Part shown: positions 16,141 through 37,900 of the stretch, piece after piece | Position numbering within the stretch: position 1 is the stretch's first letter | How the letters are laid out: each line of letters begins with the position of its first letter | From: the human T2T-CHM13v2.0 reference genome, Homo sapiens | Strand: one strand, 5' to 3' | Assembly: GCF_009914755.1 (NCBI RefSeq) | Contig: NC_060930.1 | DNA length: 64,000 nt | Position numbers and translations under genes: made by a program | Notes under the pieces: model-generated | What the model saw: the letters and a program-made list of their open reading frames with translations, nothing else | What the model was told of the DNA's origin: nothing | Databases searched by the model: none

Positions 16141-19100
16141 CCACACGACAATAATGGGAGAATTTAACACCCGACTGTCAACACTAGACAGATCAACGAG
16201 ACAGAAAGTTAACAAGGATACCCAGGAATTGAACTCAGCTCTGCACCAAGTGGACCTAATAGACATCTACAGAACTCTCCACCCCAACTCAACAGAATAT
16301 ACATTTTTTTCAGCACAGCACCACACCTATTCCAAAAATTGACCACATAGTTGGAAGCAAAGCTCTCCTCAGCAAATGTGAAAGAACAGAAATTATAACA
16401 AACTGTCTCTCAGACCACAGTGCAATCAAACTAGAACTCAGGATTAAGAAACTCCCTCAAAACCGCTCAACTACATGGAAACTGAACAACCTGCTCCTGA
16501 ATGACTACTGGGAACATAACAAAATGAAGGCAGAAATAAAGATGTTCTTTGAAACCAACGAGAACAAAGACATAACGTACCAGAATCTCTGGGACGCATT
16601 CAAAGCAGTGTGTAGAAGGAAATTTATAGCACTAAATGCCCACAAGAGAAAGCAGGAAAGACCTAAAATTGACACCCTAACATCACAATTAAAAGAACTA
16701 GAAAACCAAGAGCAAACACATTCAAAAGCTAGCAGAAGGCAAGAAATAACTAAAATCAGAGCAGAACTGAAGGAAATAGAGACACAAAAAAACCCTTCAA
16801 AAAATTAATGAATCCAGGAGCTGGTTTTTTGAAAGGATCAACAAAATTGATAGACCACTAGCAAGACTAATCAAGAAGAAAAGAGAGTAGAATCAAATAG
16901 ATGCAATAAAAAATGAAAAAGAGGATATCACCACCGATCCCACAGAAATACAAACTGCCATCAAAGAATACTACAAACACCTCTACGCAAATAAACCAGA
17001 AAATCTAGAAGAAATGGATAAATTCCTTGACACATACACCCTCCCAAGACTAAACCAGGAATAAGTTGACTCTCTGAATAGACCAATAACAGGAGCTGAA
17101 ATTGTGGCAATAATCAATAGCTTACCAACCAAAAAGAGTCCAGGACCAGATGGATTCACAGCCGAATTCTACCAGAGGTACAAGGAGGAACTGGTACCAT
17201 TCCTTCTGAAACTATTCCAATCAATAGAAAAAGAGGGAATCCTCCCTAACTCATTTTATGAGGCCAGCATCATCCTGATACCAAAGCCGGGCAGAGACAC
17301 AACCAAAAAAGAGAATTTTAGACCAATATCCTTGATGAACATTGATGCAAAAATCCTCAATAAAATACTGGCAAAACGAATCCAGCAGCACATCAAAATG
17401 CTTATCCACCATGATCAAGTGGGCTTCATCCCTGGGATACAAGCCTGGTTCAATATACACAAATCAATAAATGTAATCCAGCATATAAACAGAACCAAAG
17501 ACAAAAACTACATGATTATCTCAATAGATGCAGAAAAGGCCTTTGACAAAATTCAACAACCCTTCATGCTAAAAACTCTCAATAAATTAAGTATTGATGG
17601 GACGTATCTCAAAATAATAAGAGCTATCTATGACAAACCCACAGCCAATATCATACTGAATGGGCAAAAACTGGAAGCATTCCCTTTGAAAACTGGCACA
17701 AGACAGGGATGCCCTCTCTCACCACTCCTATTCAACATAATGTTGGAAGTTCTGGCCAGGGCAATTAGGCAGGAGAAGGAAATAAAGGGTATTCAATTAG
17801 GAAAAGAGGAAGTCAAATTGTCCCTGTTTGCAGATGACATGATTGTATATCTAGAAAACCCCATTGTCTCAGCCCAAAATCTCCTTAAGCTGATAAGCAA
17901 CTTCAGCAAAGTCTCAGGATACAAAATCAATGTACAAAAATCACAAGAATTCTTATACACCAATAACAGACAAACAGAGAGCCAAATCATGAGTGAACTT
18001 CCATTCACAACTGCTTCAAAGAGAATAAAATACCTAGGAATTCAACTTACAAGGGACATGAAGGACCTCTTCTAGGAGAACTACAAACCACTGCTCAATG
18101 AAATAAAAGAGGATACAAACAAATGGAAGAACATTCTATGCTCATGGATAGGAAGAATCAATATGGTGAAAATGGCCATACTGCCCAAGGTAATTTATAC
18201 ATTCAATGCCATCCCCATCAAGCTACCAATGACTTTCTTCACAGAATTGGAAAAAACTACTTTAAAGTTCATATGGAACCAAAAAAGAGCTCGCATCGCC
18301 AAGTCAATCCTCAGCCAAAAGAACAAAGCTGGAGGCATCACGCTACCTGACTTCAAAATATATTACAAGGCTACAGTAACCAAAACAGCATGGTACTGGT
18401 ACCAAAACAGAGATATAGATCAATGGAACAGGACAGAGCCCTCAGAAATAACGCCGCATATCTACAACTATCTGATCTTTGACAAACCTGAGAAAAACAA
18501 CCAATGGGGAAAGGATTCCCTATTTAATAAATGGTGCTGAGAAAACTGACTAGCCATATGTAGAAAGCTGAAACTGGATCCCTTCCTTACACCTTATACA
18601 AAAATTAATTCAAGATGGATTAAAGACTTAAACGTTAGACCTAAAACCATAAAAACCCTAGAAGAAAACCTAGGCATTATCATTCAGGACATAGGCATGG
18701 GCAAGGACTTCATGTCTAAAACACCAAAAGCAATGGCAACAAAAGCCAAAATTGACAAATGGGATCTAATTAAACTAAAGAGCTTCTGCACAGCAAAAGA
18801 AACTACCATCAGAGTGAACAGGCAACCTACAAAATGGGAGAAAATTTTCGCGACCTACTCATCTGACAAAGGGCAAATATCCAGAATCTACAATGAACTC
18901 AAACAAATTTGCAAGAAAAAAACAAATAACCCCATCAAAAAATGGGCAAAGGACATGAACAGACACTTCTCAAAAGAAGACATTTATGCAGCAAAAAGAC
19001 ACATGAAAAAATGCTCACCATCACTGGCCATCAGAGAAATGCAAATCAAAACCACAATGAGATACCATCTCACACCAGTTAGAATGGCAATCATTAAAAA

Positions 19101-34919: not shown

Positions 34920-37900
34920 ATGACAGGATCAAATTCACACATAACAATACCAACTTTAAATGTAAATGGAATAAATGCTTCAATTAAAAGACACAGACTG
35001 GCAAATTGGATAGAGTCAAGACCCATCAGTGTGCTGTATTCAGGAAACCCATCTCATGTGCAGAGACACACATAGGCTCAAAATAAAAGGATGGAGGAAG
35101 ATCCACCAAGCAAATGGAAAATAAAAAAGGCAGGGGTTGCAATCCTAGTCTCTGATAAAACAGACTTTAAACCAACAAAGATCAAAAGAGACAAAGAAGG
35201 CCATTACATAATGGTAAAGGGATCAATTCAACAAGAAGAGCTAACTATCCTAAATATATATGCACCCAATACACGAGCACCCAGATTCATAAAGCAAGTC
35301 CTGAGTGACCTACAAAGAGAATTAGACTACCACACATTAATAATGGGAGACTTTAACACCCCACTGTCAACATTAGACAGATCAACGAGACAGAAAGTCA
35401 ACAAGGATACCCAGGAATTTAACTCAGCTCTGCACCAAGCAGACCTAATAGACATTTACAGAACTCTCCACCCCAAATCAATAGAATATACATTTTTTTC
35501 ACCACCGCACCACACCACACCTATTCCAAAATTGACCACATACTTGGAAGCAAAGCTCTCCTCAGCAAATGTAAAAGAACAGAAATTATAACAAACTGTC
35601 TCTCAGACCATAGTGCAATCAAACTAGAACTCAGGATTAAGAAACTCACTCAAAACTGCTCAACTACATGGAAACTGAACAACCTGCTCCTGAATGACTA
35701 CTGGGTACATAACGAAATGAAGGCACAAATAAAGATGTTCTTTGAAACCAATGAGAACAAAGACACAACATACCAGAATTTCTGGGACACATTCAAAGCA
35801 GTGTGTAGAGGGAAATTTATAGCACTAAATGCCCACAAGAGAAAGCAGGAAAGATCCAAAATTGACACCCTAACATCACAGTTAAAAACTAGAAAAGCAA
35901 GAGCAAACACATTCAAATGCTAGCAGAAGGCAAGAAATAACTAAAATCAGAGCAGACCTGAAGGAAATACAGACAAAAAAAACCCTTCAAAAATTAATGA
36001 ATCTGGGAGCTGGTTTTTTGAAAGGATCAACAAAATTGATAGACCACTAGCAAGACTAATCAAGAAAAAAAGAGAGAAGAATCAAATAGATGCAATAAAA
36101 AATGATAAAGGGGATATCACCACCGATCCCACAGAAATACAAACTGCCATCAAAGAATACTACAAACACCTCTACGCAAATAAACTAAAAAATCTAGAAG
36201 AAATGGATAAATTCCTTGACACATACACCCTCCCAAGACTAAACCAGGAATAAGTTGACTCTCTGAATAGAACAATAACAGGCTCTGAAATTGTGGCAAT
36301 AATCAATAGCTTACCAACCAAAAAGAGTCCAGGACCAGATGGATTCACAGCCGAATTCTACCAGAGGTACAAGGAGGAACTGGTACCATTCCTTCTGAAA
36401 CTATTCCAATCAATAGAAAAAGAGGGAATCCTCCCTAACTCATTTTATGAGGCCAGCATCATCCTGATACCAAAGCCGGGCAGAGACACAACCAAAAAAG
36501 AGAATTTTAGACCAATATCCTTGATGAACATTGATGCAAAAATCCTCAATAAAATACTGGCAAACCAAATCCAACAGCACATCAAAACGCTTATCCACCA
36601 TGATCAAGTGGGCTTCATCCCTGGGATGCAAGGCTGGTTCAATATGCACAAATCAATAAATGTAATCCAGCATATAAACAGAACCAAAGACAAAAACCAC
36701 ATGATTATCTCAATAGATGCAGAAAAGGCCTTTGACAAAATTCAACAACCCTTCATGCTAAAAACTCTCAATAAATTAGGTATTGATGGGACATATCTCA
36801 AAATAATAAGAGCTATCTATGACAAACCCACAGCCATTATCATACTGAATGGGCAAAAACTGGAAGCATTCCCTTAGAAAACTGGCACAAGACAAGGATG
36901 CCCTCTCTCACCACTCCTATTCAACATAGTGTTGGAAGTTCTGGCCAGGGCAATTAGCCAGGAGAAGGAAATAAAGGGTATTCAATTAGGAAAAGAGGAA
37001 GTCAAATTGTCCCTGTTTGCAGATGACATGATTGTATATCTAGAAAACCCCATTGTCTCAGCCCAAAATCTCCTTAAGCTGATAAGCAACTTCAGCAAAG
37101 TCTCAGGATACAAAATCAATGTACAAAAATCACAAGCATTCTTATACACCAATAACAGACAAACAGAGAGCCAAATCATGAGTGAACTCCCATTCACAAT
37201 TGCTTCAAAGAGAATAAAATACTTAGGAATCCAACTTACAAGGGACATGAAGGACCTCTTCAAGGAGAACTACAAACCACTGCTCAATGAAATAAAAGAG
37301 GATACAAACAAATGGAAGAACACTCCATGCTCATGGGTAGGAAGAATCAATATGGTGAAAATGGCCATACTGCCCAAGGTAATTTATAGATTCAATGCCA
37401 TCCCCATCAAACTACCAATGACTTTCTTCGCAGAATTGGAAAAAATTACTTTAACCTTCATATGGAACCAAAGAAGAGCCCACATTGCCAAGTCAATCCT
37501 AAGCCAAAAGAACAAAGCTGGAGGCATCACGCTACCTGACTTCAAAGTATACTACAAGGCTACAGTAACCAAAACAGCATGGTACTGGTACCAAAACAGA
37601 GATATAGATCAATGGAACAGAACACAGCCCTCAGAAATAACGCCGCATATCTACAACTATCTGATCTTTGACAAACCTGAGAAAAACAACCAATGGGGAA
37701 AGGATTCCCTATTTAATAAATGGTGCTGGGAAAACTGGCTAGCCTTATGTAGAAAGCTGAAACTGGATCCCTTCCTTACACCTTATACAAAAATTAATTC
37801 AAGATGGATTAAAGACTTGAACATTAGACCTAAAACCATAAAAACCCTAGAAGAAAACCTGGGCATTACCATTCAGGACATAGGCATGGGCAAGGACTTC

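What the first reader, a model, noticed from the sequence alone, without database searches (positions are those of the whole stretch)
17062..36253. Identical ORF2 nonsense mutation in two separate L1 insertions 19 kb apart
Both copies read CTA AAC CAG GAA TAA GTT GAC TCT (TAA at 17062-17064 and 36251-36253) where active L1 ORF2 reads ...GAA GAA GTT GAA TCT (LNQEEVES). That is two shared non-CpG transversions, one a stop upstream of RT. L1 cis-preference makes descent of both from one ORF2-dead source unlikely. Transfer of an inactivating allele by gene conversion is the simplest reading; trans-mobilisation of a dead element is the alternative. About 30 bp downstream the copies differ again (aggagctgaa vs aggctctgaa), which may bound the tract.
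Basis: partly seen in the sequence, partly recalled or inferred. Interest (0 to 1): 0.7.

Follow-up and report, generated by a model that had tools for sequence, protein, structure and literature searches.

The report
Neighbouring L1 copies trade DNA patches
Two separate, broken LINE-1 copies 19 kb apart carry the same stop codon, likely because a short patch of DNA was copied from one to the other; eight neighbouring copies share rare changes in a patchwork, and copies up to about 250 kb apart share rare changes elsewhere in the genome too, which would blur how these elements are dated and traced.

Summary
The shared TAA is real. It lies in the RT reading frame of two independent L1 insertions, A and B. 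The 22-mer has 3 genome hits: A, B and one on C4 that is likely an independent mutation. The second 'transversion' (GAC) is not private: 163 other copies carry it. The stop sits in a ~170-bp patch with five shared minority alleles, where A and B differ at 3 of 171 sites (3-5% elsewhere). This is not a one-off pair. Eight young L1s in ~200 kb share 19 rare variants in a patchwork that no single tree explains (65 of 153 site pairs conflict). One allele has 13 genome hits against 5407 for the common allele; 7 of the 13 lie here. A shares a second stop with another copy 98 kb away. At four sites chosen in advance, L1 neighbours 10-250 kb apart shared the same rare allele in 19 of 32 pairs (null 4.6). 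Best reading: repeated non-allelic gene conversion among neighbouring L1s (0.8). The mechanism is known; for Alu the reported range is about 10 kb. No paper on this range for L1 was found. The stop has no function today.

The parts
16142..19812 (+). L1 copy A: 5'-truncated (starts inside the ORF2 endonuclease region; no promoter, no ORF1), poly(A) tail, 10-bp target-site duplication (16132-16141 / 19803-19812, 1 mismatch)
16923..17093 (+). A side of the likely conversion patch shared with B; shared minority alleles at 16957, 16964, 17028, 17062, 17070
   Evidence: 3 of 171 differences A-B, against 10-14 of 171 to copies E, F, G; site table
17062..17064 (+). ORF2 nonsense codon TAA in copy A, upstream of RT
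18073..18075 (+). second ORF2 nonsense codon (TAG) in A, shared with copy F 98 kb downstream (C6:89.644 Mb) but not with B
   Evidence: (24 genome hits, the other 22 dispersed)
31242..38996 (+). L1 copy B: full-length with the long 5' UTR form; ORF1 interrupted by D; ORF2 broken in several places; target-site duplication about 31230-31241 / 38986-38996 (read by eye)
36112..36282 (+). B side of the likely conversion patch shared with A; shared minority alleles at 36146, 36153, 36217, 36251, 36259
36251..36253 (+). ORF2 nonsense codon TAA in copy B
37487..37744 (+). 258-bp stretch of B identical to copy F (79 kb away); contains the rare G>C allele at 37690 carried by C, A (18501), D (34221), B, E, F and G
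   Evidence: 0 of 258 against 88 of 2418 and 50 of 1206; 13 vs 5407 genome hits
33093..34645 (-). L1 copy D nested in ORF1 of B: minus-strand 3' end (33255-34135), inverted 5' piece (34137-34645), ~160-bp two-part 3' transduction (33095-33255), 11-bp target-site duplication
1..929 (+). 3' part of L1 copy C (begins about 640 bp upstream of the window; 16-bp target-site duplication); carries the rare local alleles seen at B 37690 and B 38367

Best explanation
Two independent L1 insertions carry the same stop codon, likely because a patch of about 170 bp was copied from one to the other by non-allelic gene conversion, one of many such likely exchanges among the eight young L1s in this 200-kb stretch. 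Shown: separate insertions with their own target-site duplications; a patch of clustered shared minority alleles with normal divergence on both sides; patchwork sharing among eight copies, including copies with different 5' UTR and 3' end types; decay of sharing with distance in other L1s. Inferred: a break or nick in one L1 is repaired from the nearest similar L1 on the same chromosome, in either orientation, without crossover, and repeated rounds spread alleles through the neighbourhood. Weakly inferred: B was the donor (its next downstream alleles are the commonest among GAC carriers, A's match E, F and G), and the event is old (3 differences in 171 bp since; 95% range 0.4-5%), so it would likely be shared with other apes. 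The stop is a passenger in two already broken copies.
For: 3 hits for the 22-mer. Patch 3/171 vs 39/767 and 88/2668; only 39 of 1653 background pairs are as close there. 19 rare non-CpG alleles shared by 2 or more local copies; 65 of 153 site pairs incompatible with one tree. B-37690 allele: 13 hits vs 5407, 7 within C6 89.527-89.731 Mb. B-36061 allele: 14 hits, 5 within 89.465-89.733 Mb. A shares stop 1 with B and stop 2 with F. E lacks a 128-column 5' UTR segment that B and G keep, yet shares rare alleles with both. D carries a transduction from C1 and C8 and different 3' end alleles, yet shares the local alleles. In 61 background L1s, doubleton sharing was 0.81, 0.32 and 0.21 per kb at <50 kb, 50-250 kb and 250 kb-1 Mb against a null of 0.07 (p 0.005, 0.007, 0.003); it held in the 30 copies not selected for a rare allele (p 0.001 for <1 Mb). 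Near pairs are no closer overall (0.058 and 0.042 vs 0.045). One C1 pair 396 kb apart, in opposite orientation, has a clean tract: 2 of 640 vs 59 of 1144 and 55 of 1217. Four sites chosen in advance: same allele in 19 of 32 pairs at 10-250 kb, null 4.6, p 0.0002.
Against: No outgroup or second haplotype was available, so non-reciprocal transfer and its direction are not shown. In the ORF2 tree A and B are sisters (97/96), and one clade of A, B, E, F, G is not rejected (p-AU 0.53), which also fits common descent. The A-B patch is short and not identical. A and B also share two rare alleles outside it (B 35551 and the CpG-context 37354). E, F, G and H were fetched because they carry a local allele, so local sharing rates are inflated. 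For two local alleles the outside carriers are dispersed singletons (11 of 13; 22 of 24). The four-site test shows no excess beyond 250 kb (6 of 39, null 5.6), and its near pairs were not fetched, so some may be local duplications. Background sets are the first 30 listed hits (C1-C3), not random draws.
Confidence: 0.8

Rival explanations
1. Local retrotransposition or a clustered burst: the copies descend from one nearby source lineage (for the stop, an ORF2-dead element moved in trans) and inherited the variants, with later recombination blurring the tree.
For: A and B are sisters in the ORF2 tree, and a local five-copy clade is not rejected. Seven copies share one very rare allele. Two alleles recur in separate neighbour groups along C6 82.6-91.3 Mb.
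Against: 65 of 153 site pairs conflict with a tree. All 28 local pairs differ by about 3-4% in the 3' region. Long and short 5' UTR forms are mixed. D's transduction comes from C1 and C8. A shares different stops with different neighbours. Cis-preference of L1 proteins (recalled) argues against an ORF2-dead source.
Confidence: 0.1
2. Exchange at the time of insertion or through a cDNA or RNA copy: a new L1 cDNA pairs with a nearby old L1 and picks up, or donates, a patch.
For: It gives the same patchwork and distance decay. The A-B patch looks old. cDNA-mediated conversion is described for yeast Ty and Tf2 (PMC6598467).
Against: The strand skew that suggested an RT-linked step was not reproduced in the advance-chosen test (13 of 126 vs 19 of 149). 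The C1 tract of 640 bp is far younger than either element (2 differences). Promoter-less copies A and F share a stop.
Confidence: 0.06
3. Independent recurrent mutation at the same sites.
For: The same G>T arises 25 times on the common background, and likely explains the C4 copy. GAC needs 9 changes on the tree.
Against: It cannot give five minority alleles in 114 bp in both copies, nor 7 of 13 genome hits in 204 kb. Label shuffles keep local mutation rate but lose the sharing.
Confidence: 0.02
4. Assembly artefact: reads from one copy were used to polish the other.
For: Not tested against reads or another assembly.
Against: The patch holds private differences. Sharing reaches copies 100-200 kb away and in opposite orientation. 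The copies differ by about 4% and have unique flanks.
Confidence: 0.02

Closest known systems
Non-allelic gene conversion among neighbouring Alu elements (Aleshin and Zhi 2010, seen only through passages of PMC8230782 and PMC6598467)
   Same: Neighbouring copies share non-diagnostic mutations; the sharing falls with distance; mosaics cross subfamily lines.
   Different: The reported range for Alu is about 10 kb. Here L1 sharing is clear at 10-250 kb, with one 640-bp tract at 396 kb, and a group of eight copies is involved.
Ectopic gene conversion among HERV LTRs on the human Y (PMC4921805, passages)
   Same: Short tracts (14-450 bp there, ~170-640 bp here), several donors for one acceptor, donors mostly on the same chromosome.
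   Different: There shown by polymorphism on Y; here inferred from one genome, autosomal, inside L1 ORF2.
Single reported L1-L1 conversions (PMC1920257, passages: an intrachromosomal conversion proposed at one L1 locus, and cell-culture break repair from endogenous LINEs cited there; Burton et al. 1991 seen as a title only)
   Same: L1s serve as donors for repair of other L1s.
   Different: Those are single loci or engineered breaks. No distance-dependent, neighbourhood-wide pattern is described in the passages read.
Recombinant full-length L1s in HPRC assemblies (PMC13192797, passages)
   Same: Mosaic young L1s exist (35 of 2267 removed as recombinants).
   Different: Treated as a filter against lineage groups; in the passages read, donors are not tied to physical neighbours.

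Membership tests
LINE-1 insertion by target-primed reverse transcription | ORF2 reverse transcriptase domain | tested here: met
   RVT_1 in A (E 9e-48) and, in two pieces, in B
LINE-1 insertion by target-primed reverse transcription | ORF1 (L1 RBD and trimer domains) and endonuclease domain | tested here: inconclusive
   ORF1 domains met in B; B's endonuclease piece scored below the Pfam cut-off; no family for A's piece
LINE-1 insertion by target-primed reverse transcription | Poly(A) tail and own target-site duplication for each copy | tested here: met
   A 10 bp, C 16 bp, D 11 bp; B read by eye (the script picked a different 10-mer in the A-rich ends)
L1PA2/L1PA3 subfamilies | Subfamily diagnostic positions against curated consensus | not testable with these tools
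   No repeat library at hand. Labels are recalled: the ~129-bp 5' UTR deletion (seen as a 128-column gap in E) and two 3' end alleles suggest L1PA3-age copies with D and G younger-type at the 3' end
Non-allelic gene conversion | Tract of raised identity between paralogues with normal divergence on both sides | tested here: met
   3/171 vs 39/767 and 88/2668; 39 of 1653 background pairs as low
Non-allelic gene conversion | Shared derived variants that conflict with one copy tree | tested here: met
   65 of 153 site pairs incompatible
Non-allelic gene conversion | Flanks not exchanged or duplicated | tested here: met
   No flank similarity in the window self-comparison; separate target-site duplications
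Non-allelic gene conversion | Rate falls with distance in cis | tested here: met
Non-allelic gene conversion | Non-reciprocal transfer shown with an outgroup or an unconverted allele | not testable with these tools
   No relatives or second haplotype held for this genome (stated)
Sibling copies of one (trans-mobilised) source element | Source variants shared along the whole overlap | tested here: not met
   A-B divergence outside the patch is like A-E, A-F, A-G; second stop shared by A and F only; the tree still pairs A and B
Segmental or tandem duplication | Homology extends into the flanks | tested here: not met

The most novel reading that the evidence does not exclude
Young human L1s form local conversion communities: copies within about 250 kb (sometimes 400 kb or more) routinely exchange patches, some 25 times the range reported for Alu. 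About one in ten rare L1 variants is then shared with a neighbour (32 of 275 carriers, about 9 expected), nonsense alleles spread sideways between copies, and this chr6 group of eight is an extreme hub. L1 variant sharing would then be a fossil record of which loci were within reach of each other for repair in the germ line.
Probability: 0.55. Interest if true: 0.7.

Novelty: new variant of a known kind. Interest (0 to 1): 0.5.

Why it matters
The single shared stop matters little: both copies are broken anyway. The wider pattern matters more. L1 ages, subfamily trees and source-element tracing assume that copies evolve alone after insertion. If neighbours up to 250 kb apart exchange patches, shared variants partly record position and not descent, and inactivating alleles can move between copies. 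It would also give a genome-wide, directly testable measure of how far ectopic donor search reaches in the primate germ line, using T2T ape and HPRC assemblies.

Tried and rejected
1) GAC as a private mutation or a clean lineage marker: 163 other carriers, and 9 changes on the tree of 51 copies. 2) The C4 hit as a third member of the event: it lacks the three other rare alleles; the same G>T arises 25 times elsewhere. 3) The 280-bp identical run after the patch (B 36285-36564) as part of the tract: third copies are nearly as close there (1-5 differences per 200), so it is uninformative. 4) A purine-to-pyrimidine skew of shared variants on the L1 sense strand: seen after the fact (20 vs 4 in near background pairs, 10 vs 3 locally, singletons 372 vs 351; p 0.003 without one pair), but not reproduced at four sites chosen in advance (13 of 126 vs 19 of 149). 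Dropped. 5) Reach to 1 Mb: supported by doubletons (not in the GAC-only set, p 0.34) but not (6 of 39, null 5.6); only up to 250 kb is claimed. 6) An orientation rule: 21 doubletons in 27 same-orientation pairs vs 15 in 26 opposite; none seen. 7) A link between the carriers at C6 86.5 and 88.05 Mb and this group beyond the one allele: only a few scattered shared sites; left open. 8) D's source as a local element: its transduction maps to C1 and C8, with no L1 next to either flank. 9) The tree left out 18 of 69 copies that covered under 90% of the region, among them C, D and H. 10) Literature: ten searches found no paper on distance-dependent L1 neighbour conversion; one search was swamped by unrelated matches. 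Aleshin and Zhi 2010, Tremblay 2000 and the paper on the 5' UTR deletion were not held, and most subscription journals are not searched, so absence from print is not shown. No supplements were read.
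Full report
Observation. The frames that open after each stop match the RT domain from residue 72, so the stop is in the ORF2 frame upstream of RT. Copy A (16142-19812) is 5'-truncated. Copy B (31242-38996) is full-length, with a third L1, D, nested in its ORF1. A fourth, C, overlaps the start of the window. Flanks are unrelated. A, C and D have their own target-site duplications; B's was read by eye.

The 22-mer has 3 genome hits: A, B and one on C4. GAC without the stop has 163 hits, against 4190 for a longer GAA pattern, so it is not private; on a tree of 51 copies it needs 9 changes. 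The stop on the GAA background has 25 mostly dispersed hits, so G>T recurs here. The C4 copy lacks the rare alleles that A and B share at B 36061, 36146 and 36153, and the tree needs 2 origins of the stop. It is likely independent. All counts are exact-match lower bounds.

The patch. Between B 36112 and 36282 (A 16923-17093) A and B share five minority alleles (36146, 36153, 36217, 36251, 36259) and differ at 3 of 171 sites, while each differs from neighbours E, F and G at 10-14 of 171. Upstream they differ at 39 of 767 sites and downstream at 88 of 2668; 39 of 1653 background pairs are as close in that interval. The 280-bp identical run beyond it is conserved in third copies too. Three differences in 171 bp (0.4-5%) suggest an old event. 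Direction is not shown; B to A is slightly favoured because B's downstream alleles are the commonest among GAC carriers and A's match E, F and G.

The neighbourhood. All four young L1s found in the 104 kb read in full share two further rare alleles. One (B 37690) has 13 genome hits against 5407 for the common allele; 7 lie within C6 89.527-89.731 Mb, and the other 6 form three neighbour pairs. I fetched E, F and G (this allele) and H (the B 38367 allele) because they are carriers. Against 61 background copies, 19 rare non-CpG alleles are shared by two or more of the eight, in changing subsets; 65 of 153 site pairs conflict with any one tree. A shares a second nonsense codon (18073-18075) with F, 98 kb away, and not with B. 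B and F are identical over 258 bp but differ by about 4% elsewhere. E lacks a 128-column 5' UTR segment that B and G keep (recalled as the deletion that splits L1PA3), yet shares rare alleles with both. D carries a two-part 3' transduction from C1 and C8 and different 3' end alleles, yet carries both local alleles. Against this reading: the ORF2 tree pairs A with B (97/96) and does not reject a local five-copy clade (p-AU 0.53), and the upstream neighbour at 89.465 Mb has the common allele at 37690.

Is the locus special? Among the 61 background L1s, alleles seen in exactly two copies were shared at 0.81, 0.32, 0.21 and 0.10 per kb at <50 kb, 50-250 kb, 250 kb-1 Mb and 1-5 Mb, against a shuffled mean of 0.07 (p 0.005, 0.007, 0.003, 0.105; 4, 10, 39 and 101 pairs). 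The excess held in the 30 copies not chosen for a rare allele, with or without the strongest pair. Near pairs were no closer overall. One pair on C1, 396 kb apart and in opposite orientation, differs at 2 of 640 sites in a tract and at about 5% outside it. Hit lists for three commoner alleles also showed more near pairs than expected from the density of common-allele copies (the first 100 listed hits of each). As an independent test I chose four conserved sites by rule, listed their transversion carriers and kept the 275 on C1-C11, where all four lists are complete. Neighbours 10-50 kb apart had the same allele in 8 of 11 pairs (null 1.6), at 50-250 kb in 11 of 21 (null 3.0), at 250 kb-1 Mb in 6 of 39 (null 5.6). 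These pairs were not fetched, so some may be local duplications. A strand skew seen earlier did not repeat in this test and is dropped.

Mechanism. Shown: separate insertions, a patch of clustered shared alleles, tree-incompatible patchwork across element types, and decay with distance. Inferred: homology-directed repair of a break or nick in one L1 from a nearby L1 in cis, without crossover, repeated over time (0.8). Rivals: local descent from one source, including trans-mobilisation of a dead element (0.1); exchange through a cDNA at insertion (0.06); recurrence (0.02); assembly error (0.02). The stop is a passenger: A has no promoter or ORF1, and both copies have other breaks in ORF2.

Comparison with what is known. 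Non-allelic gene conversion between transposon copies is established. For Alu it is reported among neighbours within about 10 kb (PMC8230782, passages; PMC6598467, parts 1-2 of 4; both cite Aleshin and Zhi 2010, which was not held). LTR conversion with short tracts and same-chromosome donors is described on Y (PMC4921805, passages). Single L1-L1 cases are mentioned (PMC1920257, passages; a 1991 title in the reference list of PMC5640379). An HPRC preprint removes 35 recombinant L1s without tying donors to neighbours in the passages read (PMC13192797); PMC10883270 does not use the terms searched. Ten searches found no account of L1 neighbour conversion over 10-250 kb, but most subscription journals are outside the library.

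Verdict. The pair itself is an ordinary case of a known process. The range, and the eight-copy patchwork, are a likely new variant of it. Interest 0.5.

Noticed in passing
window 33095-33255 (minus strand): Copy D carries a two-part 3' transduction: bases 1-80 match C1:66,004,939-66,005,018 (94%) and 85-160 match C8:81,563,642-81,563,717 (96%). Neither site has an L1 beside the flank, so both source elements of the chain appear absent from this genome.
   Followed up: partly
window 33093-34645: D is an inverted (twin-priming type) L1 inserted into ORF1 of B; the two pieces overlap by about 28 bp of L1 sequence at the inversion point.
   Followed up: partly
window 38700-38708: A 9-bp insertion in B's 3' region that is largely the reverse complement of the bases just before it, as from a template switch.
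   Followed up: no
L071 and L074 (C1 59.13 and 59.53 Mb): A clean, recent-looking 640-bp tract (2 differences) between L1s 396 kb apart in opposite orientation; a better textbook case than the finding itself.
   Followed up: partly
C6 82.6-91.3 Mb (L075-L078, L081-L083): Two very rare alleles recur in separate neighbour groups along 9 Mb of C6 (11 of 13 hits and 9 of 14 hits). Stepwise spread over megabases or recurrence; unexplained.
   Followed up: partly
C2 167.315 and 167.396 Mb: Another neighbour pair, 81 kb apart and in opposite orientation, shares the same ORF2 stop on the common background.
   Followed up: no
window 30835-32034: The RefSeq enhancer in the hub's table overlaps the 5' UTR of copy B, inside an intron of the minus-strand lncRNA LOC105377885.
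   Followed up: no
window 12990-14943: Fragments of a much older L1 (about 70% identity to the young copies), interrupted by an Alu-like repeat.
   Followed up: no
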